Shown here piece after piece: positions 9,069-46,638 of a stretch of DNA of 64,000 bases. The position numbers and the translations under genes were made by a program. A model generated the notes under the pieces. The model had not been told where the DNA came from. It worked only from the letters and a program-made list of their open reading frames with translations, and ran no database searches. Origin of the DNA: a phage. Numbering within the stretch: the stretch's first letter is position 1; each line of letters starts with the position of its first letter. Location of the stretch: the sequence record PV357172.2; one strand, 5' to 3'.

Positions 9069-9254
9069 ATGACAACTCGTGCAATTGCTCGACTAGAAGC
9101 TGATCGTGATAATCTGATTAATAATATTAAGGTTCGTGGTAATATTATTAAGGCTCTGAAAGCTGAACTTCTTGAAGAACTTCAAGGTCAAGTAGAGCGT
9201 CGTGAAGCTCTAAAAGAGGTTGAGGAAGCTATCGAAAAACTCAAAGCTGAGTAA
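9069..9254 (+). CDS. small coiled-coil protein (61 aa)
   Basis: Track ORF with GAGGAAATAG SD-like sequence. Confidence 0.45.
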   Translation: MTTRAIARLEADRDNLINNIKVRGNIIKALKAELLEELQGQVERREALKEVEEAIEKLKAE

Positions 9255-9257
9255 ATT

Positions 9258-9839
9258 ATGCACGGAATATCCTTACCAATTCCAGGGTTTGAGGAGTACT
9301 TAGTAAGTTTGGATGGGTTAGTATTTAGTATCAAATCAAACAAAATACTAACCCCAATAACCAGTAATTACGGATACTTATCTATACGTCTCCATAAAAA
9401 TGGTCAACAGAGAAATACCGGTGTACATAGGATTTTAGCATGTGCATTTAAGAAATTACCAAGTCTAGACTCTGAACTAGAAGTTGACCATATTAACACA
9501 GACATTACTTATTGGGGTCTTAATAACTTACAAGTGCTCACAAAAGAGCAGCATCTAGAAAAGACTTTAAAAGATAAAGGATTTAGTAAACTAAACCATG
9601 ATAATTGTTGTAAGGATTGTGGTAAAGCTATTTCTTTAAAAGCTGAAAAATGTCAGGAGTGCTCTTCACATAAACCAAAAGATATCTCTATAACTAAAGA
9701 AATAATCGAGGTTACAGTAAGAGAGCTAGGCTGGTCAGGTGCAGGGAGAAAGTTAAGTTATTCAGATAATGGGTTGCGTAAAAGATACACTTCTTTAGGA
9801 GGCAATCCTAAAGAACTTAAAAAGTTAAAGGTACTATAG
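9258..9839 (+). CDS. HNH homing endonuclease
   Basis: LEVDHINTD...NNLQVLTKEQH HNH motif plus C-terminal Cys-rich region; stop codon overlaps the start of tRNA-Asp. Confidence 0.8.
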   Translation: MHGISLPIPGFEEYLVSLDGLVFSIKSNKILTPITSNYGYLSIRLHKNGQQRNTGVHRILACAFKKLPSLDSELEVDHINTDITYWGLNNLQVLTKEQHLEKTLKDKGFSKLNHDNCCKDCGKAISLKAEKCQECSSHKPKDISITKEIIEVTVRELGWSGAGRKLSYSDNGLRKRYTSLGGNPKELKKLKVL

Positions 9840-9901
9840 TCTAACGGTTAGGATACTCCCCTGTCACGGGAGAGGTAGGGTTTCGATTACCCTTAGTACC
9901 G
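9830..9901 (+). tRNA. tRNA-Asp (GTC)
   Basis: Perfect acceptor GGTACTA/TAGTACC, anticodon stem CTCCC/GGGAG, loop CTGTCAC, T-arm AGGGT-TTCGATT-ACCCT, CCA. Confidence 0.85.
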
Positions 9902-9910
9902 CCAAATTAT

Positions 9911-9984
9911 ACATCCATAGCTCAATTGGTTAGAGCTACCGCCTCTTAAGCGGTAGGTTCTAGGTTCAAGTCCTAGTGGGTGTA
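9911..9984 (+). tRNA. tRNA-Lys (CTT)
   Basis: D-stem GCTC/GAGC, anticodon stem ACCGC/GCGGT, loop CTCTTAA, T-arm CTAGG-TTCAAGT-CCTAG, CCA. Confidence 0.85.
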
Positions 9985-10114
9985 CCAAACATCAGAGCAG
10001 CGTGATGTACTGCAAAGACCCAAAGTCCGGGGTGGACTTCTTGATTCAAAGGAGCAGGCACTAATTATCATTCTAGCGTGGTGGAGAGGGGACACCAGCT
10101 TGCCGAGGGTAGAA

Positions 10115-10191
10115 GCTCGTTCGATTCGAGTGAAAGAATGGTTCTCGTAAATCCGCACAAGTGATAGCAGGTTCAAGTCCTGCCTAGATTG
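10115..10191 (+). other. two tRNA-like T-arm elements without canonical acceptor stems
   Basis: GCTCG-TTCGATT-CGAGT and GCAGG-TTCAAGT-CCTGC; no complementary 5' acceptor found. Confidence 0.2.
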
Positions 10192-10200
10192 ACTTATTAT

Positions 10201-10271
10201 GCGTTCGTAGTTAAAAGGTATAATTTTTGGTTGCCAACCAGAAGTTGAGGGTTCGATTCCCTCCGACCGCA
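10201..10271 (+). tRNA. tRNA-Gly (GCC)
   Basis: Anticodon loop TTGCCAA, T-arm GAGGG-TTCGATT-CCCTC, acceptor 6/7 paired, CCA. Confidence 0.75.
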
Positions 10272-10527
10272 CCAAATTTAGGTTTCTGCTTCCTAGAGAA
10301 CGGACTCCTAGATAAACAAGGCGATGAGTTTCCGGCCGGTTCTAGTCGCTGAAAATCCTCCCGACCAGGTAGGTGTAAGTAAATGAAAGTTTACTTATTG
10401 AGTAGGTTCCGATAGACCGGCGGGTCTATTCTGGCATTTAAGAGAGGTCTCGCAAACTTCTTTGTCAGCCGTGGGGTTGGTAGCCTCCAGGTGGCCTACA
10501 CAATAAGTAAATTTATTAAAAATTCAT

Positions 10528-10556
10528 TTGCTATTCTGCTTAATTCTCTGTATAAT
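10528..10556 (+). promoter_or_regulatory. sigma70-like early promoter
   Basis: TTGCTA 10528-10533, TATAAT 10551-10556. Confidence 0.6.
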
Positions 10557-10587
10557 ATATTTTATAAAGTGAGTTAACAAAAATTAA

Positions 10588-10660
10588 CAGTGCGTAGCGC
10601 AGTTGGTAGCGTGGGAGCCTTGGGTGCTTCGGGTCGCAGGTTCGAGTCCTGCCGCACTGA
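10588..10660 (+). tRNA. tRNA-Pro (TGG)
   Basis: Perfect acceptor CAGTGCG/CGCACTG, anticodon loop CTTGGGT, T-arm GCAGG-TTCGAGT-CCTGC, CCA. Confidence 0.85.
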
Positions 10661-10669
10661 CCAAACAAT

Positions 10670-10744
10670 TGCGGGTTAGATCTCTGGTAGAGATCGCTAG
10701 TCTCATAAGCTAGAAAGAGGTAGGTTCGATTCCTGCACCCGCTT
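10670..10744 (+). tRNA. tRNA with CAT anticodon (Met/fMet/Ile2)
   Basis: Anticodon stem CTAGT/GCTAG, loop CTCATAA, T-loop TTCGATT, 1:72 U-U mismatch, CCA. Confidence 0.75.
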
Positions 10745-10921
10745 CCATTTTAATAGAGGATTTCGAAATGAAAGTATTTCGATTAGTAGTAAGTGACAAA
10801 CGGTTAGGTAAGAATACATCAAAATCCTTACTTGCTCATTATGGTAAAAATTGGGATGAAGTAATGGCAGAGTTTAATACTAATCACCCTTACTTGAAAG
10901 TTCACTCTATTAAGGAAGTTT

Positions 10922-11395
10922 ATGCTTATTAACAGGGTGCTTCAAGCTCTAGATCTTCCAGAGCTCTTTACTATTACCGACCCCTTAATACATCGGTATA
11001 TGGAAAAGTATAATGAAATCTCTGGTAAAAAAGGGAAACTAAAATCCTCAGAATTTAAGTTCTGTTATAGAATGGCAGCATTAAACCTCTTAAAGTACAA
11101 GAGGGAGCATAAAATCCCTATAACAGAAGGATTTGTCTATGTAATAGGTAGTCCAGCATGGCCTGGACTATATAAGATAGGTATGACAGTAGATGTGAAT
11201 GAAAGACTGTCTAGTTATCAAACATATTCGCCTTATCGTGATTACAAGTTATACCATTTCAGATTCTCCTCGGACAAGAGAAGAACTGAAAAAGCATTAC
11301 ATAACCTTCTGAAGGACTACAAAGTATCAGGAGAATGGTTTGAAGTACCTCTGTTAGACGCCTTCAAACTATTAGTAGAAAATTTGGATTGCTAA
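10922..11395 (+). CDS. GIY-YIG-like (T5orf172-domain) homing endonuclease
   Basis: GFVYVIGS...YKIGMT...ERLSSY...EWFEV matches the T5orf172 pattern; stop overlaps tRNA-Lys start. Confidence 0.65.
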   Translation: MLINRVLQALDLPELFTITDPLIHRYMEKYNEISGKKGKLKSSEFKFCYRMAALNLLKYKREHKIPITEGFVYVIGSPAWPGLYKIGMTVDVNERLSSYQTYSPYRDYKLYHFRFSSDKRRTEKALHNLLKDYKVSGEWFEVPLLDAFKLLVENLDC

Positions 11396-20028: not shown

Positions 20029-20699
20029 TGTCAGTATTAGTCGGTTTACATGGTGAAGCTGGTTCGGGAAAAGATACCGTTGCAAAATTAATTATCGATT
20101 GGTGTAATGACACGTATCCAACGTGTTTACCCCGTCGTTACAGTTTTGCTAAGCCCGTTTATGAACTTGCATCCGTAATCCTCGGTGTAACTCCAGAGTT
20201 TCTAGGAGAGCGCAGGGGAAAAGAGATTGATCAATGGTTTACGGTCACACAATCTCAATTGGAGCGAGCCAGAGATGTGTGGTTTAAGTACGGTATCGAT
20301 AAGTTTGAAGACTTCTCGTACGTTTGGCCTATTTTTGAGGAAAAATATCTTAATCCCCAACAACTTATCTCAGAGAGTAAAGAAGACGGACTTTATAGTT
20401 TATTTATTTCTCCGAGAAAAATGTTACAGCTCGTAGGAACAGAGCTAGGAAGGCAGCTGGTGCATGAACGCATTTGGCTCATAATTCTGGAGCAATCCAT
20501 CGCTAAAGACGACCCAGACGTCGCCGTAATAACAGATGTTAGATTCCCCAATGAAGGAAAGCTACTCAGAGAAACAAACCATTTAGATATGGATTCTTTG
20601 ATAGTAAATGTAGTACCGCTGAGCAGAAGTTTACTATTAAATCAGATCATCCATCTGAAAGTGGTATTCCTGCAAATATATTACTCACGAATTAGTTAA
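20028..20699 (+). CDS. P-loop kinase, dNMP kinase-like
   Basis: Walker A GLHGEAGSGKDT at the N-terminus. Confidence 0.5.
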   Translation: MSVLVGLHGEAGSGKDTVAKLIIDWCNDTYPTCLPRRYSFAKPVYELASVILGVTPEFLGERRGKEIDQWFTVTQSQLERARDVWFKYGIDKFEDFSYVWPIFEEKYLNPQQLISESKEDGLYSLFISPRKMLQLVGTELGRQLVHERIWLIILEQSIAKDDPDVAVITDVRFPNEGKLLRETNHLDMDSLIVNVVPLSRSLLLNQIIHLKVVFLQIYYSRIS

Positions 20700-30593: not shown

Positions 30594-30778
30594 TGGAAAC
30601 TCTTTTTCTTTTAATGCTAGTAGGTTCCTTGCTAGTTATATTAGCACTTCTACTGATCTGCAATATTCTTAATAATAAGAATCTAGAGCTAAAGTGTGAA
30701 AACCAAATCCTTAATCGTGAACTTAAACAATATAACATAGCAGCGCACAAGCTACTAGACAAATTGGAGAATAAGTAA
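30593..30778 (+). CDS. membrane-anchored coiled-coil protein (61 aa)
   Basis: N-terminal TM helix; same architecture as the upstream ORF. Confidence 0.45.
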   Translation: METLFLLMLVGSLLVILALLLICNILNNKNLELKCENQILNRELKQYNIAAHKLLDKLENK

Positions 30779-31383
30779 TGACTTTATATGCACAACAACC
30801 TGTTCAAGTAGTACCAGACCATGAATTAAATACATGGGATTATGATTTTAAAGACTTAACTGCCACTGTACAGTTCAAATCTATGAAATTAACCTTTGCG
30901 CACACTGATATTAAAGCCTGTAAAGATCTTGAGCATAAATTAAAAGAAGCTCGTAAGATCTTTGGCAAGGCTCGGATTCCAGCTGATAACCTTATTAACG
31001 CATTAATAGATGCTGGTTATAAACTCGTAAAGACTGAGGTGAACCGCCCTAGTACTCCTGTGACTGTTGGAGGTTCCTGGACCAAAAGTGGTATCGCATT
31101 TAATCCTAAAATAACGTCGGATTTGCACAATGTTCCATGTGGTGGCGTTATAGAAAATAATTCCTCATATCGAGTTGGTGAAGATTACGGCCCTTCTGTA
31201 CAGTTGCAACATACTCAAGAAGCTTTTGAATCTGATATGCGAAGCGTAGCACCTGTGGATACTGAAGGTTTTAGAAGTCCCAGCTATGTTACTCACTTTA
31301 ATAATCTTAGGCCTGGGAGTATAAATGATACTATCCTTGAGGCGTTGGGAGCTGCTCTTAACGAAGATAAGAGAGGTAGTTAA
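30778..31383 (+). CDS. hypothetical protein (201 aa)
   Basis: Track ORF. Confidence 0.5.
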   Translation: MTLYAQQPVQVVPDHELNTWDYDFKDLTATVQFKSMKLTFAHTDIKACKDLEHKLKEARKIFGKARIPADNLINALIDAGYKLVKTEVNRPSTPVTVGGSWTKSGIAFNPKITSDLHNVPCGGVIENNSSYRVGEDYGPSVQLQHTQEAFESDMRSVAPVDTEGFRSPSYVTHFNNLRPGSINDTILEALGAALNEDKRGS

Positions 31384-31460: not shown

Positions 31461-32345
31461 ATGTATAACTTTAAAGATAAACTAAGACAAAATGCTGGTA
31501 AAACAAAACCTAAAGAGAACAATAATGTTCCTAATGCCAAAGTATTACCATTTCCAGAACTATCCCAAGAAGAAAAAGATAAGTTAGCATTTATGTTTGA
31601 TGCACTTATAGGGCTAAATGGACGTTTATATTCCTCTCTCAATATTAATGAGAAACGTTTAGTAGAGATGTTTTGTAAACGTTACCAAGTTACTTCAAAG
31701 GGCAATTCTTATAAAGAAGGTGAGAAAGCATTTACAGTCTTAAAGATTAGCGCATATGCACATCGTTTCTTAGTTTATGGGTTGCAAATGGAATACTTTA
31801 CTATCCCATCATTTAGCTCTTTCCATATCTTTGAAGATGAACGAATGAATATTGATGATCTCTACGGGGATACATACAAATACTCAGGAAGTCCATTCCA
31901 CGATGCATTAAGGAGTTACCCATCTAACTATTTACCCATTAGAGCATCTCAAGGTAAAGCTAGCATCTTTGCTGTATACTCAGGATCTAAAGCATCGGAT
32001 CTAGAAACTTATATATTTAAAGAGCGTAAATCTGTGCTTCCAGATGAAGCATTGTATAACAATCCATTGCTTCCAGAAAAAGAACCAGAAAAAATTGATG
32101 TAACCCCACCAATACCGTCTGACTCTCAGTATTTAATTTATGAGAAACAAGTTAAGTTATCCCTAGAAATTGGATTAGTTACACCGCTTGCTGCAGCATT
32201 CATAAATAGATATCTAGAAATTCCTGATGAGTTCCACACACGTTATAATACGAATATTCAGATAACGGATGAACTAATTGCGTTAGCAAAAGATACACCT
32301 ACAGATACTGAGGCGTATCAAAAAGCATACCAAGAGTTACTATAA
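31461..32345 (+). CDS. hypothetical protein (294 aa)
   Basis: Track ORF with GGGAG SD; followed by a hairpin at about 32355-32385. Confidence 0.55.
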   Translation: MYNFKDKLRQNAGKTKPKENNNVPNAKVLPFPELSQEEKDKLAFMFDALIGLNGRLYSSLNINEKRLVEMFCKRYQVTSKGNSYKEGEKAFTVLKISAYAHRFLVYGLQMEYFTIPSFSSFHIFEDERMNIDDLYGDTYKYSGSPFHDALRSYPSNYLPIRASQGKASIFAVYSGSKASDLETYIFKERKSVLPDEALYNNPLLPEKEPEKIDVTPPIPSDSQYLIYEKQVKLSLEIGLVTPLAAAFINRYLEIPDEFHTRYNTNIQITDELIALAKDTPTDTEAYQKAYQELL

Positions 32346-32792
32346 TACTCTGCATGTCTCGGTGCACAATACCTGTACCGAGACTCAAATACAAACTCTC
32401 GTTGACAGATAGCTAAATGTATGTTATCATAACTCTATGAGTTAATAGAATTAACCATTTAGAGTTGCCACACAGAAGGTGTGGTGGTTCAGTAATTTAA
32501 AATTACTAACTTGTAGCGGAGGATACGGAGCGACAGGACAAGTTAATAAGTAATTTAATATAAATTACTAGAAACATCACGAGACCTTCTGGCGGGGGGC
32601 AAAGCTCTATATGAGAACCCTGGGGGATCTTATATTTAAAATAAAAGTAAAACTTTTGACCACATAATTTACATTCAAGATGATACACCTGTTGCCGCTC
32701 ATCTGCTAGGATGGCACAACACTTTCTTCTAGACTCCTAAGTTTCTAGGAAATTGATAAGCACAAATTCTAGAGATCACACAAAAATATTCA

Positions 32793-33529
32793 TCGGATTT
32801 GCACATATTCTAGGGCAGTTTTCACTGTTCCTAGAAACTCCAGCAATAGGCGGTTAATACAGGGCGGTTATAGGGAGGGCGGTTATTTCTAGGAGACATT
32901 TTTTGAAAACACATTTCCAGAAATTACTGTCGGATTTGCACATTGTGTTTCTAGAAATTTATGGTCGGATTTGCACAAACGCCTAAGTTTTTAGGAACTC
33001 TTACTCTCCTGAAAATAGCAGCATTATTTCGGGCCGAAGGCCCATGATTGCCTGAGTTTTTAGAGCCACAAGAATTTTCACTTGTCAAGCTATTTTGCCC
33101 CATTTTGCTAATAAAATTTTACTTTTTCTGCACCTATCTCAAATTTCCCCAAATTATCTCAACTCTTCCCCAAAATCCCCGCAAATCAGGTGCTCCGCAC
33201 CAATCCTGCGCCTACTTCCTTCTAGTCCCAAAATTTCTCTCACTCTCTCATCCTCTCCTCAAACCTATACAATCACACACCCTCTCATCGAAGTCATAAA
33301 AATCTTGTCGGATTCGCACATCTCAACACATGTCGGATTTGCACATACTCTAGCTAATCCCACAGGATTCGAACGCAGTTCGTGATTGCTGGAGTTTTTG
33401 GGAAAATTCATTGTCGGATTTGCACACTATAAAAATTTTTCGGGTCGGATTTGCACACTACCAAAAATTGTCGGATTCGCACATACACGCCCACGCGTAA
33501 TCCATGGGGGCAAATGTCGGTTTTGCACA
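32793..33529. repeat. dispersed array of 10 copies of GTCGGATTTGCACA in non-coding DNA
   Basis: Copies near 32793, 32928, 32964, 33307, 33332, 33413, 33444, 33470, 33516 (two as GTCGGATTCGCACA, one GTCGGTTTTGCACA); irregular spacing. Confidence 0.8.
33100..33300 (+). repeat. about 200-nt pyrimidine-rich (C/T) tract with strand asymmetry
   Basis: Plus strand almost lacks G across this interval. Confidence 0.7.
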
Positions 33530-33559
33530 AAAGCGCAGGGCAATTGCCCTGCTCGCCTG

Positions 33560-33735
33560 AATGCGAATAAAAATAAGAATCATTCTCATTTAAAAAGTGG
33601 AATGCGAATGAGAATCATTATCATTTAGAAAACGGAATGAGAACTATTCAAGAAGTGAAATGATTCTCATTTAAAAAGTGGAGTGATTATCGATTAGCTA
33701 GTGAAATGCGAATGATAATGATTCGCATTTAAAAA
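33560..33735. repeat. tandem about 35-bp repeats with Fur-box-like palindromes
   Basis: Four to five units such as AATGCGAATGAGAATCATTATCATTTAGAAAACGG; GAGAATCATTATC matches 12 of 13 positions of the Fur consensus. Confidence 0.6.
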
Positions 33736-33762
33736 CGGAAGTGAGAAACACTGCTATTTAAG

Positions 33763-33872
33763 TTATCCACAGACTTATTAACAGCACGATTTGACTTGAC
33801 AGAATCCTAGCCATTTTGAGGCGTTATCCACAGACTTATCCCCAGGTTATTCTACTGTATAAATATACAGTA
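33763..33872. repeat. left arm of inverted repeat carrying DnaA boxes
   Basis: TTATCCACAGACTTAT twice (33763, 33824) followed by CTGTATAAATATACAG palindrome. Confidence 0.7.
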
Positions 33873-33987
33873 TTCCTATGCAGTGAATAATTCTAATATA
33901 GGCTTAAAACGTCCTGAGTGGTGGTACTAAAACAAAGGGGTATTTATCTGAAGGACTGAAAAACTGGGATCTGCTCCCCGCTTGTTA

Positions 33988-34182
33988 TCAGTCCGGTAAT
34001 TGATGCGTGATCTTCTCCTCCTCCCCGTAGGAATCCACCAAATGCTGATAATACCCATCGTTATCATAAATCACTTTATCATAATCGCCACGCTCGACCG
34101 CTTGCCGATTTTCCAGCGTATCAGGCACAAAGAAAGTATCAACGGTAACAGTAGTTTTAGTTACAACAATTTTATCACTCAT
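33988..34182 (-). CDS. hypothetical protein (64 aa)
   Basis: Minus-strand ORF in the IR-flanked cassette; Fur-like motif in its upstream region (34196-34216). Confidence 0.45.
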   Translation of the reverse strand: MSDKIVVTKTTVTVDTFFVPDTLENRQAVERGDYDKVIYDNDGYYQHLVDSYGEEEKITHQLPD

Positions 34183-34308
34183 AACGCCATCGCCCCTAGA
34201 ATGAGAATGATTATTATTACCATTACAAGCCCGTTACTAAATCGTAAACGCTGGGAATGTTTACCAGCGGTATTATTAGATTTATGGGATTGCGTTTTAC
34301 GCCACCAG

Positions 34309-35255: not shown

Positions 35256-35296
35256 TCTCCTAGAAATTAGAGGCGAAAGTAACGCCCAGTTATTGG

Positions 35297-36126: not shown

Positions 36127-36645
36127 ATGGGTCTATTTAAAGATATAGATTATTCGCTTGCTAATGATAACTTTTATTATGATGAAACATCCCCATCATT
36201 TCTAAGATGGAAAGTACAGAAAGGTAATAGTAAGGTGGGGGATATTGCAGGGCATTATAGTAACACAGGTTACTATCGAGTAAAGTTAGCAGGCGAACAA
36301 TACGCAGTGCATAGAATAATATGGGTATTATTTAATGGTGAGATTGATAGCAATCTAACAATCGATCATAATGATCGTAACCGTGCTAATAATAACATTA
36401 ATAATCTTCGCTTAGTAGATCATAAGCAGAATACGAATAACAAGAAAGATTATAAGCGTGCTAATAAGTTGCCTAAGCATATCTATTATAATGGTTCTAG
36501 AGTTGATAATAACGGAAGAAACTATTTGCGCGCTATAGTTAAAGATCCTACTAGTAACAAAAGTGTTAGTAAATCAGGTTATGATTTACAAGAGTTATTA
36601 TTATGGGTAGAAACTAAAAAAGCTGAATTTGGGATTGTCAATTAA
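36127..36645 (+). CDS. HNH homing endonuclease
   Basis: HRIIWVLFNGEIDSNLTIDHNDRN...NNLRLVDHKQN HNH motif. Confidence 0.8.
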   Translation: MGLFKDIDYSLANDNFYYDETSPSFLRWKVQKGNSKVGDIAGHYSNTGYYRVKLAGEQYAVHRIIWVLFNGEIDSNLTIDHNDRNRANNNINNLRLVDHKQNTNNKKDYKRANKLPKHIYYNGSRVDNNGRNYLRAIVKDPTSNKSVSKSGYDLQELLLWVETKKAEFGIVN

Positions 36646-37033: not shown

Positions 37034-37375
37034 ATGATTGAGCTAACAAAAGATATTGATTTAGAAACTGTGCTAGATAATCTTTACTATGATGAAACTA
37101 GTCCCAGTTGCCTACGGTGGAAAGTATCCCGCCCCGGTTGCGCCCTTCATGGGGTAGCAGGTACTAAAAGAAAGGATGGTTACTGGTCTGTACAGCTCAA
37201 TAAAGAGCGTTACCTAGCGCATCGTATCGTGTGGTTATTATTTAATTATAAAATAGATAGCAAACTAGTAATTGATCATATTGATCGTAACCCTAGTAAT
37301 AATTTTATTGATAACTTACGGTTAGTAACTCAAGCCGAAAACAACCAAAATAAGGGAGGCTATAGAAAGGCGTAA
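37034..37375 (+). CDS. HNH homing endonuclease (short paralog)
   Basis: HRIVWLLFNYKIDSKLVIDHIDRN...DNLRLVTQAEN; upstream leader similar to that of 36127. Confidence 0.75.
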   Translation: MIELTKDIDLETVLDNLYYDETSPSCLRWKVSRPGCALHGVAGTKRKDGYWSVQLNKERYLAHRIVWLLFNYKIDSKLVIDHIDRNPSNNFIDNLRLVTQAENNQNKGGYRKA

Positions 37376-38336: not shown

Positions 38337-38744
38337 ATGACTAACGCAAAAACCGCAAAATTCGCATGGAATGAAGAAAACACTCAGAAAGCTGTTACCA
38401 TGTACCAGCAGTTAATCAACGAAAACGGTTTAGATTTTGCAAATAGCGACGGCCTGAAAGAGATTGCAAAAGCAGTAGGCGCGGCTTCTCCTGTGTCTGT
38501 TCGCTCAAAATTGACCAGTGCAAAAGCCTATCAAAAAAGCGATAAGCCGCGTAAAGTTGGCGGCGGTAGTTCAATCCGTAAAGCGCATTATGTGCGAGTA
38601 ATTGCAAAACACGCTATCGATTCCGGCATTATCAAAGACGCCGATGATCTGGCAAGCCTTGAAAGTGCTAAACTGGAAACGCTGGACGCAGTAGCGCAAC
38701 TGTTAGGCGTTGCCGATGAAGTAAAACAGGCCGCAGGTGAATAA
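38337..38744 (+). CDS. hypothetical pre-early-region protein (135 aa)
   Basis: AGGAG SD; followed by hairpin GCCCCCT...AGGGGGC. Confidence 0.5.
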   Translation: MTNAKTAKFAWNEENTQKAVTMYQQLINENGLDFANSDGLKEIAKAVGAASPVSVRSKLTSAKAYQKSDKPRKVGGGSSIRKAHYVRVIAKHAIDSGIIKDADDLASLESAKLETLDAVAQLLGVADEVKQAAGE

Positions 38745-41616: not shown

Positions 41617-42351
41617 ATGAATCAAGTTAAAACGAATATTACCCGTAATTTCCCGCATATTTCCCGCGTCATGATTTGGGATCTTGATGGCACTATCGTT
41701 AATTCATTCCATCGTGTCGCGCCTTGCTTTGATAGCGACGGGAATTTAAATTTAAATAAGTATAAAAATGAGGCTTGCAAACATGATTTAATAATGCAAG
41801 ATACTTTATTGCCTTTGGTGGAATATATGCGCCAATGCATGAATGACGCAAATACTTTAAACATTATTTGCACCGCTCGACTGATGAGCAAATCAGACTA
41901 TTATTATTTGCGTAAACAAGGATTGCGCGGGCGTGGTGATAGTAATATCCGTGTATTTTCCCGCGATACACTGCATAAATATTTTGAGGCTGATAAGGTT
42001 AGCGAAATATACCACAGCAAAGACGCAGTTTATAAATCGTATTATTTTGAGCTATTCAAACAACTATATCCGAACGCTGATTTTACAATGATTGATGATC
42101 ATAAAGGTGTATTATCAGCGGCAGCGTCATACGGATTTAAAACGCTGGACGCGCAAGCCGTTAATGATATTCTATCAATCGGCGTGGCATTGATAGGCGG
42201 AACCTTTATTGATGAATCTCTCGATGATGATAATGATTATCAGTTCCTAGCGGACCGATTGAAATTATGTTGGGAAAGTATGACCGAGGAAGAACGCGCA
42301 GAATATAGTTGCAGCCCGCAACAATATATTGAGAAATTAAAAGTTGCGTAA
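41617..42351 (+). CDS. dmp: HAD-superfamily phosphatase, Dmp-like 5'-deoxyribonucleotidase (244 aa)
   Basis: HAD motif I DLDGT and motif IV IDDH; same length as T5 Dmp as I recall it. Confidence 0.6.
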   Translation: MNQVKTNITRNFPHISRVMIWDLDGTIVNSFHRVAPCFDSDGNLNLNKYKNEACKHDLIMQDTLLPLVEYMRQCMNDANTLNIICTARLMSKSDYYYLRKQGLRGRGDSNIRVFSRDTLHKYFEADKVSEIYHSKDAVYKSYYFELFKQLYPNADFTMIDDHKGVLSAAASYGFKTLDAQAVNDILSIGVALIGGTFIDESLDDDNDYQFLADRLKLCWESMTEEERAEYSCSPQQYIEKLKVA

Positions 42352-42513
42352 TAATTAAAGTTGAAATAGTCACGGTGTGTAATGATAACATGCCGTGACT
42401 ATTAGCTTGCTAAGTACCGGGCGGTAATGAGACTCATTCTCATCTGGGGGGCCACTGCACCCACCCACGCGTACGTAATCCAAAGAATTTGGCAAAAGTC
42501 ATTTTAGTGCTAA

Positions 42514-43053
42514 TTAACTGTTTAATTGGGCAACGTCTGGTATACTTCCTTTGAACATCTCCTGTATTGCAAAGTCACCATGAAATGTCCTTCTTAGTAA
42601 ATTTGCATAATTTACGGCATCTTCTAATCCGCTATAGGGAAAGTACTTAGTAGTACCCCTTATCAGCCCCTGTTTATCATGTAATCTTACCATCCACTTC
42701 TGAAGTTCTTTATGCCATGTAACATTTAGATAGCCTGATGATGCTCTTGAGATTCTGCCATTATGATTATTCTCTGTAATTGAAGCCTCTCTTAAATTTG
42801 ACCATCTATTATTTAGTTTATTCCTATCTATGTGGTCTACACATTCCTCTGGCCATCTATTCTCCATAATAACAAAAGCTACTTGATGTGCATAAGCTTT
42901 AAACCCTCGATACTTAAGCTGCCTATATCCCCTATTTAAAGTACCTGCTTCTTTACCCTTACGATTGCCTCTTTTCCAGGTAAAAACTCCGGTTTCGGGA
43001 TCATAAGCAAATACTTCTTGTATTTCCTGTATGTTTAAATTATTCTTCATCAC
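42514..43053 (-). CDS. HNH homing endonuclease
   Basis: HQVAFVIMENRWPEECVDHIDRNKLNNRWSNLRE HNH motif. Confidence 0.75.
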   Translation of the reverse strand: MMKNNLNIQEIQEVFAYDPETGVFTWKRGNRKGKEAGTLNRGYRQLKYRGFKAYAHQVAFVIMENRWPEECVDHIDRNKLNNRWSNLREASITENNHNGRISRASSGYLNVTWHKELQKWMVRLHDKQGLIRGTTKYFPYSGLEDAVNYANLLRRTFHGDFAIQEMFKGSIPDVAQLNS

Positions 43054-43285
43054 TCACCTTTGCCCGAAATCTCTTCCGCGACGCCCGAGATCCATCCGAC
43101 CACTCCCGCTCAAACTCCGCACGTTTCTCGTCAAACTTCCGCTCCCTTTCCGCAATCTTCCGCTCCCTTTCCGCAATCTCCCGCGATACTTCCGCAGTAT
43201 ACTTACGATGCTTGTTAATAGCCGCAGTCATTCCGAAAACTCCCGCAAGTACCCCGATAATAAAAGCAATTATAATACTAAACAT
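43040..43285 (-). CDS. small membrane protein with charged repeat tail (81 aa)
   Basis: N-terminal TM helix then IAERERK repeated, encoded by a 21-bp tandem DNA repeat (about 43140-43185). Confidence 0.5.
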   Translation of the reverse strand: MFSIIIAFIIGVLAGVFGMTAAINKHRKYTAEVSREIAERERKIAERERKFDEKRAEFEREWSDGSRASRKRFRAKVSDEE

Positions 43286-43922: not shown

Positions 43923-44035
43923 GCTCGTGATTTCCTAGAAGGGCTTTTCACTTTCTTGCATAGTGTTTTCTGCTAGTACACCATCCAAGAAATAAAAAAT
44001 TTAGTTTACTTGGATGTCTTTTTGCTTTATACTAA

Positions 44036-46155: not shown

Positions 46156-46638
46156 ATGGCAAATGATGTATTAGTACCAGATCTTATGTCCCCTGAAGGG
46201 ATGGATGTAATTGAAGCATATTTACAGTGTGGGAGTGATGTGCCTTCTGCCGCACGTAGTCTTGGAATGTCCGAAATTGCTTTTAGAGATATTATGAATC
46301 GTAGTGAAGTTAAGAACTACTTAAATGATATTTTTATGGAGAGTGGTTTCCGTAACAGAGATCGTTTATTTGGTGTTCTGGATGAAGTTATCAAGCGTAA
46401 ACTAGAGGAACTAGAAGAAACTGGCATGGGTTCTGACCAAGATATTATGGATATTCTCTGGAAAGCACATAAAATGAAAATGGAAGAAATGAAAATGATG
46501 GTAGAACTGGAGAAAGTTAAGGCAGCAGCCCGTACTCCAGCTAACCAGACCAACATCCAGAATAATATTATTGCTGGAGCTGGGGATCAAAACTACATGG
46601 ACTTAATTACTTCCCTAGCTACTGGAGGTAAGAAGTAA
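46156..46638 (+). CDS. terminase small subunit (160 aa)
   Basis: Directly upstream of and overlapping the large terminase gene. Confidence 0.55.

What the first reader, a model, noticed from the sequence alone, without database searches (positions are those of the whole stretch)
32700..33530. Iss-like non-coding block: 10 copies of GTCGGATTTGCACA plus TTTCTAGGA-type motifs and a pyrimidine tract
About 1.4 kb without credible ORFs carries ten copies of a 14-bp motif, several TTTCTAGGA/TTCCTAGAAA palindrome-like motifs, multiple palindromes and a 200-nt C/T-rich strand-asymmetric tract. The TTTCTAGGAG motif recurs just upstream of two minus-strand start codons (35255 and 35524) and as ATTTCCTAGAAG near 43940. 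This density of repeats suggests a protein-binding array, for example injection-stop or A1/A2 binding sites, or an origin.
Basis: seen in the sequence. Interest (0 to 1): 0.65.

Follow-up and report, generated by a model that had tools for sequence, protein, structure and literature searches.

The report
T5 injection-stop region repeat array
This non-coding block is the already-described repeat region at the end of the left terminal repeat of a T5-like phage (the "injection stop signal" region); the 14-base repeats are real, one-directional and conserved across the whole phage family, but what they do is still unproven.

Summary
GTCGGATTTGCACA occurs 10 times at one mismatch or fewer, all on the + strand, against 0.25 expected. 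Nine copies lie at 32792-33529; the tenth is at 31116, inside an ORF. The window is a Tequintavirus, reverse-complemented relative to T5, and this block is 95% identical to T5 9.3-10.9 kb. There the copies are already annotated as "direct repeat D copies 1-10" (AY587007), and part of the block as "injection stop signal" (AY543070).

Three things go beyond the annotation:
- **The array brackets the genome end.** The right boundary of the terminal repeat falls at 33062|33063, at the same nucleotide in five records. Three copies lie outside it and six inside.
- **Motif, polarity and layout are family-wide.** They recur in Klebsiella, My1-like and Vibrio demerecviruses, with 57 of 58 copies on one strand.
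- **The innermost copy abuts the 7.9% nick.** It sits 3-4 nt from the nick motif R/GCGCRGG in five of the six lineages compared.

The TTTCTAGGAG copies near 35.2-35.5 kb are Shine-Dalgarno sites and are unrelated. Function cannot be settled here. The leading readings are a landing pad for the pre-early protein A2 (restart of DNA transfer) and a terminase or terminal-repeat-end processing signal. The feature is already known and of moderate interest.

The parts
31116..31129 (+). D repeat copy 10 (exact GTCGGATTTGCACA), inside ORF 30778-31383 (T5 ORF019 homologue)
   Evidence: Annotated 'direct repeat D copy 10' in AY587007.
32356..32384 (+). Hairpin (likely terminator) that ends the early operon converging on the block
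   Evidence: Inverted repeat I18, immediately after the stop codon of ORF 31461-32345. The terminator role is inferred: the scan did not report it.
32402..32430 (+). Conserved sigma-70 promoter (TTGACA, 17 nt, TG-n-TATCAT) pointing into the array
   Evidence: 11 of 12 consensus positions. The -35 and extended -10 are kept in 21 genomes while the spacer varies freely.
32437..32650 (+). Candidate structured small RNA of about 200 nt: 5' hairpin, long imperfect hairpin, terminator-like 3' hairpin
   Evidence: MFE -65.6 kcal/mol, z = -5.8. At least 5 non-alignable sequence types give the same fold, and the + strand is more stable than the - strand in 8 of 8 types. No Rfam hit.
32706..32954 (.). 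Cluster of CTAG-centred palindromes (TTCTAGR, TTCCTAGAA, TTTCTAGGA)
   Evidence: CTAG is about 2x enriched in the same non-coding region of IME260, the My1-like contig and BBMuffin.
32792..32977 (+). D repeat copies 9, 8 and 7 (32792, 32929, 32964), outside the terminal repeat
   Evidence: They sit at -271, -134 and -99 nt from the terminal-repeat boundary in T5.
32849..32885 (+). Three GGCGGTTA repeats
   Evidence: Column conservation is 0.99 at 32870-32890. GGGCGGTT pairs are also present in IME260 and the My1-like contig.
33010..33130 (.). Most conserved core. It holds the hairpin GGGCC-gaa-GGCCC (33031-33043), the terminal-repeat boundary and mature right genome end at 33062|33063, and the terminal box GAGCCACAAGAATTTTCACTTGTCAAGCTATTTTGCCCC
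   Evidence: Conservation is 0.93-0.99. The last base of T5 aligns to 33063. The boundary is at the identical nucleotide in T5 (two records), Elw, EscoHU1 and HASG4. The box is recognisable in IME260, the My1-like contig and BBMuffin.
33095..33300 (+). C-rich, G-poor tract (C 74, G 13 of 205 nt) with CCCCAAA repeats (T5 'direct repeat A' copies 2 and 3)
   Evidence: The same composition bias is seen in the first 260 nt of the terminal repeat in IME260, the My1-like contig and, more weakly, BBMuffin.
33307..33529 (+). D repeat copies 6 to 1 (33307, 33332, 33413, 33444, 33470, 33516), inside the terminal repeat
33532..33552 (+). Nick motif A|GCGCAGG (the T5 major 7.9% nick falls at 33532|33533) plus palindrome J
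   Evidence: AY543070 and AY587007 features mapped onto the window. Motif scan. The consensus R/GCGCRGG is from PMC3517423. The motif sits 3-4 nt after the last D copy in five of the six lineages compared.
33560..33740 (.). T5 'direct repeat C' palindromes, which resemble Fur boxes
   Evidence: The site at 33604 matches the Fur consensus at 16 of 19 positions.
33763..33832 (+). Two consensus DnaA boxes TTATCCACA (33763, 33824) inside the T5 IRC'/IRD' repeats
   Evidence: Davison 2020. Also present in Vibrio phage BBMuffin.
38337..38744 (+). Gene A2 (pre-early DNA-binding protein): candidate reader of the D motif (inference only)
46156..46638 (+). Small terminase subunit gene: alternative candidate reader (inference only)
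   Evidence: phrog_3802. At least 95% identical across most T5/Epseptimavirus-type relatives listed. The N-terminal helix-turn-helix part of the model has pLDDT 73-82.

Best explanation
**What it is.** The block is the 'Repeat Region 3' or injection-stop region of a T5-like phage. It lies at the junction between the left terminal repeat, which is the DNA injected first, and the rest of the genome.

**Proposed mechanism.** The 14-bp D repeats form a one-directional array of binding sites for a phage-encoded, sequence-specific DNA-binding protein. I commit to the pre-early protein A2, working with A1, as the most likely reader. The steps would be:
1. The first 8% of the genome enters and transfer pauses. 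The pause point lies next to the innermost D copy and the 7.9% nick.
2. A2 is made from the injected DNA.
3. A2 loads on the successive, same-oriented D sites as they become accessible.
4. This releases or ratchets the DNA, so that second-step transfer resumes.

**Shown here:** the identity of the region; the reality, polarity and family-wide conservation of the motif; its position relative to the terminal-repeat end and the nick; and the helix-turn-helix architecture of the A2 model.

**Inferred:** that any protein binds the D motif, that the protein is A2, and the restart mechanism.
For: **Identity.** The block is 95% identical to T5 9.3-10.9 kb, which is annotated as iss and as direct repeat D copies 1-10.

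**Non-chance.** 10 copies against 0.25 expected.

**Selection on the motif itself.**
- Motif columns are 0.91 conserved against 0.84 for spacers in 21 genomes (P = 0.0016).
- The motif persists where the flanks no longer align: Klebsiella IME260 has 11 copies, a 122-kb My1-like contig has 8-10, and Vibrio phage BBMuffin has 8. Overall 57 of 58 copies are on one strand.

**Position.**
- The innermost copy lies 3-4 nt from the nick motif GCGCRGG in T5-like, Sugarlandvirus, Eos, Stitch and Vibrio phages, but not in the My1-like contig.
- The literature places the first-step-transfer shear point at about 9618, immediately next to this copy.

**The candidate reader.**
- A2 is required for second-step transfer and is a DNA-binding protein (Davison 2020; phrog_1725).
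- It is conserved family-wide (42% identity to BBMuffin A2).
- That fits a non-palindromic GTCGG-ATTT-GCACA site.
Against: - No binding data exist.
- At the pause, most D copies should still be in the tail or capsid, out of reach of a cytoplasmic protein.
- Three copies (plus the one at 31116) lie beyond the terminal repeat, and the array brackets the terminase cut site. A restart function does not require that arrangement.
- The small terminase subunit is equally conserved family-wide (43% against 42% identity to BBMuffin), so phylogenetic profiles cannot separate the two readers.
- The 7.9% shear point is an old, low-resolution estimate.
Confidence: 0.35

Rival explanations
1. **Terminus or packaging signal.** The two D arrays flank the site where terminase cuts concatemers to create the right genome end, which is the right boundary of the terminal repeat. 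The small terminase subunit, or another maturation protein, binds the D copies on both sides. It positions the nuclease on the highly conserved D-free core. The arrangement resembles the repeated elements that flank the cleavage site in phage P1 pac or SPP1 pacL/pacR. (These comparisons are recalled from the literature, not tested here.)
For: - The boundary is at the identical nucleotide (...GAGTTTTTA|GAGCCACA...) in five independent records and within 5-30 nt in three more. It always lies inside a D-free core flanked by D copies.
- That core (33010-33130) is the most conserved stretch of the whole region, at 0.93-0.99.
- It is also the only stretch that blastn still finds in the Klebsiella phages listed.
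- Three to six copies lie outside the terminal repeat, where an injection-stop role is hard to see.
- Uniform polarity suits one-directional packaging.
- The small terminase subunit has an N-terminal helix-turn-helix domain. It is at least 95% identical across most T5/Epseptimavirus-type relatives, matching the invariance of the motif.
- The innermost copy abuts a nick that is made late in infection. An old T5 record labels the start of the small-terminase ORF 'putative sciB', a nick-formation gene.
Against: - The array spans 500-930 bp, which is large for a pac site.
- The distance from the D copies to the core varies between lineages.
- The left genome end has no D copies.
- The other major nick motifs in the window (5153, 20209, 62170) have no D copy nearby.
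- The conserved core alone could be the terminase site.
- All lineages descend from one ancestor, so 'the boundary lies inside the array' counts as roughly one observation.
- The packaging direction of T5 is not settled. PMC3517423 states that the left end is packed first.
Confidence: 0.3
2. **Host-factor stop signal.** The D copies are weak DnaA boxes (ATTTGCACA against the consensus TTWTNCACA), or sites for another conserved host protein. Together with the neighbouring consensus DnaA boxes, they tether the entering DNA to membrane-bound DnaA and so halt transfer. This extends Davison's DnaA model.
For: - The motif is nearly identical in phages of Escherichia, Klebsiella and Vibrio hosts and in the My1-like contig. 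That fits a universal host reader.
- Every copy is within 0-2 mismatches of the DnaA consensus.
- Consensus TTATCCACA boxes lie 230-300 nt away and are also kept in the Vibrio phage.
- The stop occurs without new protein synthesis, so a pre-existing factor must read the signal.
Against: - Only 1 of the 10 window copies meets TTWTNCACA.
- The recurrent T-to-C variant (ATTCGCACA) and the Vibrio form (GCACC) change positions that are fixed in that consensus.
- The strongly conserved 5' half, GTCGG, has no role in a DnaA box.
- The spacing of 25-137 nt is unlike DnaA oligomer arrays.
- Most copies lie beyond the pause point.
Confidence: 0.1
3. **Iteron-type replication origin.** Direct repeats, DnaA boxes and a nearby promoter would act as in plasmid or lambda-type origins.
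For: - Same-oriented direct repeats, two or three DnaA boxes and a strong conserved promoter all lie within 1.6 kb.
Against: - Repeat spacing is irregular.
- No Rep-like initiator gene is adjacent; the neighbouring ORFs have no informative family match.
- There is no match to plasmids.
- Electron-microscopy studies cited by Davison place T5 origins near the genome centre, and the replication genes are not yet in the cell during the pause.
Confidence: 0.05

Closest known systems
Bacteriophage T5 'direct repeat D' (DRD) array in Repeat Region 3, the injection stop signal region (GenBank AY587007 and AY543070; Davison 2020, bioRxiv 10.1101/866236)
   Same: It is the orthologous sequence (95% identity). 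It has the same ten copies in the same order and strand, the same neighbours (nick 1, palindrome J, direct repeats C and B, DnaA boxes), and the same position at the end of the left terminal repeat.
   Different: Nothing essential differs. The window is a related Tequintavirus assembled with a single collapsed terminal repeat, in reverse orientation, and three copies carry a different single-base variant. The published descriptions assign no function to DRD.
Phage packaging sites with repeated elements on both sides of the cleavage point (P1 pac hexamers, SPP1 pacL/pacC/pacR, lambda cosB R sites). Recalled from the literature, not tested here
   Same: Short repeated motifs bracket a conserved, repeat-free core that holds the cut producing a genome end. 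The polarity is uniform.
   Different: The array is several-fold longer (about 740 bp). The cut makes an exact end of a 10-kb direct terminal repeat rather than a headful start or a cohesive end. No terminase binding has been shown.
T7 short repeat arrays (SRL/SRR) next to the terminal repeat. Recalled from the literature
   Same: They are arrays of short direct repeats next to the boundaries of an exact direct terminal repeat in a virulent phage. Their function is also poorly defined.
   Different: The T7 units are 7 bp and tightly tandem. Here the units are 14 bp, spaced 25-137 nt apart, and present at one boundary only.
Plasmid and phage iterons with DnaA boxes
   Same: They are same-oriented direct repeats near consensus DnaA boxes.
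   Different: The spacing here is irregular, no adjacent initiator gene is present, and the replication origins of T5 map elsewhere.

Membership tests
T5 iss region / DRD repeats (Repeat Region 3) | Sequence homology to T5 coordinates of about 9.2-10.4 kb | tested here: met
   95% identity over 1566 nt to AY543070, NC_005859 and AY587007.
T5 iss region / DRD repeats (Repeat Region 3) | Copies of GTCGGATTTGCACA at the annotated DRD positions, all on one strand | tested here: met
   The ten window copies map one-to-one onto 'direct repeat D copy 1-10'.
T5 iss region / DRD repeats (Repeat Region 3) | Location in the non-coding gap between convergent pre-early and early operons, spanning the end of the left terminal repeat | tested here: met
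   ORF map, T5 annotation, and boundary at 33062|33063.
T5 iss region / DRD repeats (Repeat Region 3) | Acts in cis to halt DNA transfer after about 8% of the genome | not testable with these tools
   This needs infection experiments. The literature has positional evidence only.
Terminase recognition / genome-end (pac- or cos-type) site | Contains the physical end of the mature genome | tested here: met
   The last base of the T5 record aligns to window 33063. The boundary is identical in five records. This rests on the termini as deposited.
Terminase recognition / genome-end (pac- or cos-type) site | Repeated elements flank the cleavage point | tested here: met
   D copies lie at -271, -134, -99 and +245 to +454 in T5. 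The same pattern is seen in IME260, the My1-like contig and BBMuffin.
Terminase recognition / genome-end (pac- or cos-type) site | The small terminase subunit binds the repeats, and the site is necessary and sufficient for cutting and packaging | not testable with these tools
Co-distribution of the small terminase subunit and A2 is uninformative.
Iteron-type replication origin | Regularly spaced iterons next to the gene of their initiator protein | tested here: not met
   Spacings are 137, 35, 343, 25, 81, 31, 26 and 46 nt. Flanking ORFs have no initiator-like family match.
Iteron-type replication origin | DnaA boxes present | tested here: met
   TTATCCACA at 33763 and 33824.
DnaA-box cluster | D copies match the DnaA consensus TTWTNCACA | tested here: not met
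   One of ten copies matches (33516, TTTTGCACA). Seven have one mismatch and two have two mismatches (read from the matches). The Vibrio-phage form ends in GCACC.
Known RNA families (Rfam) | Covariance-model match in 32200-34200 | tested here: not met
   The only hit is a chance-level one (E = 0.06, 16 bits against a gathering score of 627).

The most novel reading that the evidence does not exclude
The D arrays, together with the highly conserved D-free core they bracket, are not the injection stop at all. They would be the long-unidentified maturation site of T5-like phages, where terminase, guided by its small subunit on the D copies, makes the exact right end of the 10-kb terminal repeat. 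That same machinery might also place the adjacent 7.9% nick. In this reading, the conserved promoter and the hypervariable but iso-structural RNA of about 200 nt just upstream would be an unrecognised further component of the same junction.
Probability: 0.25. Interest if true: 0.6.

Novelty: already known. Interest (0 to 1): 0.33.

Why it matters
How T5 stops DNA injection after 8% of its genome and then restarts it has been open since the 1960s. How it makes exact 10-kb terminal repeats is also unknown.

The D array is one of the few conserved cis elements at exactly this junction. Three results here give concrete, cheap experiments that could assign it to injection control or to genome maturation:
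- The array is family-wide, from Escherichia to Vibrio phages.
- It is strictly one-directional.
- It brackets the genome end and abuts the 7.9% nick.

The experiments are gel shifts with A2 and the small terminase subunit, and D-copy mutants. The finding as submitted, however, re-describes an annotated feature.

Tried and rejected
- **Plasmid homology:** none found.
- **Rfam on the whole block:** nothing real.
PHROG and Pfam give no function for them. The adjacent ORF018 family is confined to T5-like and Klebsiella phages, so it cannot read a family-wide motif.
- **Phylogenetic profiling to separate A2 from the small terminase subunit:** this failed. Both co-occur throughout Demerecviridae, with similar divergence.
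- **A1 homologues outside the family:** Pseudomonas phage pf16 carries its A1 homologue in an unrelated gene context and has no D array, so it is uninformative.
- **TTTCTAGGAG near 35.2 and 35.5 kb as part of the system:** rejected. They are Shine-Dalgarno sites.
- **D copies at other nick sites:** none.
- **D copies at the left genome end:** none. A GGCGGTT link between the two ends did not hold in this window.
- **Consensus structure for the upstream RNA:** RNAalifold on a sequence alignment gave nothing, because the sequence types do not align. Per-type folding was used instead.
- **A2 model against solved structures:** Foldseek gave no significant hit. A sequence-profile search of PDB found nothing for A2 and only one marginal, unexamined hit (8vd6_A, 'CAP REPEAT', E = 5e-5, 26 bits) for the small terminase subunit.
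- **Davison 2015 review:** it could not be read.
- **Literature on the 14-mer:** no paper in the library contains the full 14-mer or its reverse complement; the only hits were 12-base substrings in unrelated plant and Drosophila papers.

Full report
**1. The observation**

The motif GTCGGATTTGCACA has 11 hits at two mismatches or fewer in the 64-kb window, against 0.25 expected; none of 100 shuffles reaches 11.
- Ten hits have one mismatch or fewer, and all ten are on the + strand.
- Nine lie at 32792-33529.
- The tenth is an exact copy at 31116, outside the stated coordinates and inside ORF 30778-31383.

The other claims also hold.
- **TTTCTAGGA:** three exact copies lie in the block. CTAG occurs 9 times in 460 nt against 2.1 expected, which is the window maximum.
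- **Palindromes:** 22 inverted-repeat pairs.
- **C/T-rich tract:** 33095-33300 is 67% pyrimidine (z about 4.5) and is above all G-poor, with 13 G against 74 C in 205 nt.

The block is a 1.64-kb gap between convergent genes, and it holds only mechanical ORFs.

The two TTTCTAGGAG copies at 35258 and 35534 on the minus strand sit 7-8 nt upstream of ATG codons. They are Shine-Dalgarno sequences (AGGAG), not members of the array.

**2. Identity**

The region 32350-33990 is 95% identical, in reverse orientation, to T5 9366-10931. It matches 449 T5-like phage records and no plasmid.
- In AY587007 the ten copies are annotated 'direct repeat D copy 1-10'. The neighbours are annotated as nick 1 (7.9%), palindromes C-J, direct repeats A, B and C, and inverted repeats C' and D'.
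- AY543070 annotates 9140-10149 as 'injection stop signal (iss)'.
[quoted passage not shown] He gives DRD no function.

No paper in the library contains the full 14-mer or its reverse complement. The feature is therefore already described; its function is not.

**3. Anatomy relative to the genome end**

The window is an assembly with one collapsed terminal repeat. The gene dmp (41617-42351) runs on into the receptor-binding protein gene.

The last base of the T5 record aligns to window 33063.
- The right boundary of the terminal repeat is at the identical nucleotide, ...GAGTTTTTA|GAGCCACA..., in T5 (two records), Elw, EscoHU1 and HASG4.
- It is within 5-30 nt in Stitch, IME260 and K37.
- Three records (chee24, saus176N, K20) annotate other positions.

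D copies 7-9 lie at -271, -134 and -99 nt, outside the repeat. Copies 6-1 lie at +245 to +454, inside it.

In a 21-genome alignment, the D-free interval 33010-33130 is the most conserved stretch, at 0.93-0.99. It contains a GGGCC-gaa-GGCCC hairpin, the cut, and the box TTTTCACTTGTCAAGCTATTTTGCCCC. D-motif columns score 0.91 against 0.84 for spacers (P = 0.0016).

**4. Depth of conservation**

Among the Klebsiella phages listed, only about 79 bp remain detectable by blastn, and that stretch is the boundary box. IME260 nevertheless carries 11 D copies, six outside and five inside its annotated repeat.

A 122,024-bp IMG/VR contig of My1 type has five copies inside and three outside. Its end falls 14 nt before the homologous box.

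Vibrio phage BBMuffin belongs to another subfamily; its A1 is 34% identical. Its non-coding gap is equivalent and holds:
- 8 copies of TCGGATTTGCACC, which flank the start of its repeat;
- a GCGCAGG motif after the last copy;
- TTATCCACA boxes further in.

Across six lineages, 57 of 58 copies are on one strand. In five of the six, the innermost copy is followed after 3-4 nt by GCGC, the nick motif R/GCGCRGG; the My1-like contig is the exception. The G-poor composition of the first 260 nt of the repeat is also kept.

In IMG/VR, multi-copy hits occur only in contigs of about 96-122 kb. Other contigs have single, chance hits.

**5. Who reads the motif?**

The motif is a non-palindromic 14-mer, GTCGG-ATTT-GCACA.

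*DnaA.* Only one of ten copies satisfies the DnaA consensus TTWTNCACA. The common ATTCGCACA variant and the Vibrio GCACC form change positions that are fixed in that consensus. The conserved GTCGG half would have no role in a DnaA box. DnaA is therefore unlikely.

*Neighbouring ORFs.* They have no informative family and are not family-wide.

*A2 and the small terminase subunit.* These two DNA-binding proteins are family-wide.
- A2 (38337-38744) is 42% identical to its BBMuffin counterpart, and the small terminase subunit (46156-46638) is 43% identical.
- Their distributions coincide, so profiles cannot separate them.
- The small-terminase model is poor overall, but it has a typical N-terminal helix-turn-helix domain. 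The protein is at least 95% identical across most T5/Epseptimavirus-type relatives.

**6. Mechanism**

I rank two readings almost equally.

(a) *A2 landing pad and restart, 0.35.* A2 is needed for second-step transfer, and the array begins at the pause point and nick. The A2 fold also suits the site.
- Against: most copies are not yet in the cytoplasm at the pause.
- Against: the three copies outside the repeat are unexplained.

(b) *Terminase or repeat-end processing, 0.30.* The arrays bracket the exact cut inside the most conserved core, and polarity suits directional packaging. The adjacent nick is made late in infection, and an old T5 record labels the start of the small-terminase ORF 'putative sciB'.
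- Against: the array is long.
- Against: distances from the array to the core vary.
- Against: the left end and the other nick sites lack D copies.
- Against: the core alone may suffice as the terminase site.

The host-DnaA reading (0.10) and the origin reading (0.05) are weaker. The remaining probability goes to functions not considered here.

In vitro, T5 ejects its whole genome without the 8% stop. Virion proteins alone therefore do not read a stop signal.

**7. Other elements in the same gap**

*Promoter.* A sigma-70 promoter at 32402-32430 points into the array. Its hexamers and TG motif are kept in 21 genomes while the spacer varies.

*Structured RNA candidate.* The roughly 200 nt downstream exist in at least five sequence types that do not align.
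- All types fold alike: a 5' hairpin, a long hairpin of 125-150 nt, and a 3' hairpin with a U-rich tail.
- Mononucleotide-shuffle z-scores run from -4.6 to -7.7.
- The + strand is more stable than the - strand in 8 of 8 types, and each fold has 3-9 G·U pairs.

This looks like an unannotated structured small RNA gene. It has no Rfam match.

*Fur-like palindromes.* The repeat C palindromes resemble Fur boxes, up to 16 of 19 positions. 24 of 25 Fur-like hits in the window fall in the first-injected DNA.

**8. Verdict**

As a feature it is already known. The added value here is its exact relation to the genome end and the nick, and its conservation across the family.

Noticed in passing
window 32402-32650 (+): A conserved strong sigma-70 promoter is followed by about 200 nt that occur in at least 5 non-alignable sequence types yet fold alike: a 5' hairpin, a long imperfect hairpin, and a terminator-like 3' hairpin. 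The window copy has z = -5.8. The + strand is more stable than the - strand in 8 of 8 types. Compensatory changes appear within the T5 type (read by eye from the sequences). The tail GGGGGaTCTTATATTTAAAA also appears to be present in Vibrio phage BBMuffin (read by eye). This is probably an unannotated structured small RNA of T5-like phages; it has no Rfam match.
   Followed up: partly
window 33560-33740; also 34197-34215, 42223-42247, 42423: The T5 'direct repeat C' palindromes match the E. coli Fur-box consensus (33604: 16 of 19). The best match in the window (42223, 17 of 19) lies inside dmp. 24 of the 25 hits with five mismatches or fewer lie in the first-injected terminal-repeat DNA. T5 uses the Fur-regulated receptor FhuA. 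The Vibrio phage has different repeats at this place.
   Followed up: partly
window 5153, 20209, 33532, 62170 (+): The T5 nick motif AGCGCAGG occurs four times on the + strand. The only matches to R/GCGCRGG on the - strand are two GGCGCRGG sites (33212, 35126). This fits the known single-strand nicks. The copy at 20209 is immediately preceded by an exact TTTCTAGGA.
   Followed up: partly
window 33045-33061 and 33383-33399: The 17 nt that end at the terminal-repeat cut (TGATTGCCTGAGTTTTT) recur 338 nt inside the repeat (TGATTGCTGGAGTTTTT), between D copies. A 20-nt inverted repeat (32828-32847 and 33385-33404) also spans the boundary.
   Followed up: no
window 42371-43064, 36127-36645, 37034-37375: Three HNH homing-endonuclease-like ORFs lie in or beside the terminal repeat. 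The one at 42514-43053 (-) sits in about 690 bp that replace about 190 bp of T5 at the left repeat boundary. The left end of this phage's repeat therefore cannot be placed by homology to T5.
   Followed up: partly
window 46156-46638 (+): The ORF now called the small terminase subunit (phrog_3802) is labelled 'putative sciB' at its 5' end in the 1991 T5 record M62847. sciB is a gene for single-chain interruptions, which hints that nick formation and terminase may be linked.
   Followed up: partly
window 38337-38744 (+): The A2 protein models with good confidence (pLDDT 84) as two Myb- or homeodomain-like three-helix modules joined by an invariant basic linker (KPRKVGGG..RK). No related solved structure was found by sequence.
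   Followed up: partly
L004, L005, L009 (chee24, saus176N, Kenya-K20): These records annotate their terminal-repeat ends 210-420 nt away from the position shared by five other records. They are either imprecise coverage-based calls or real alternative ends.
   Followed up: no
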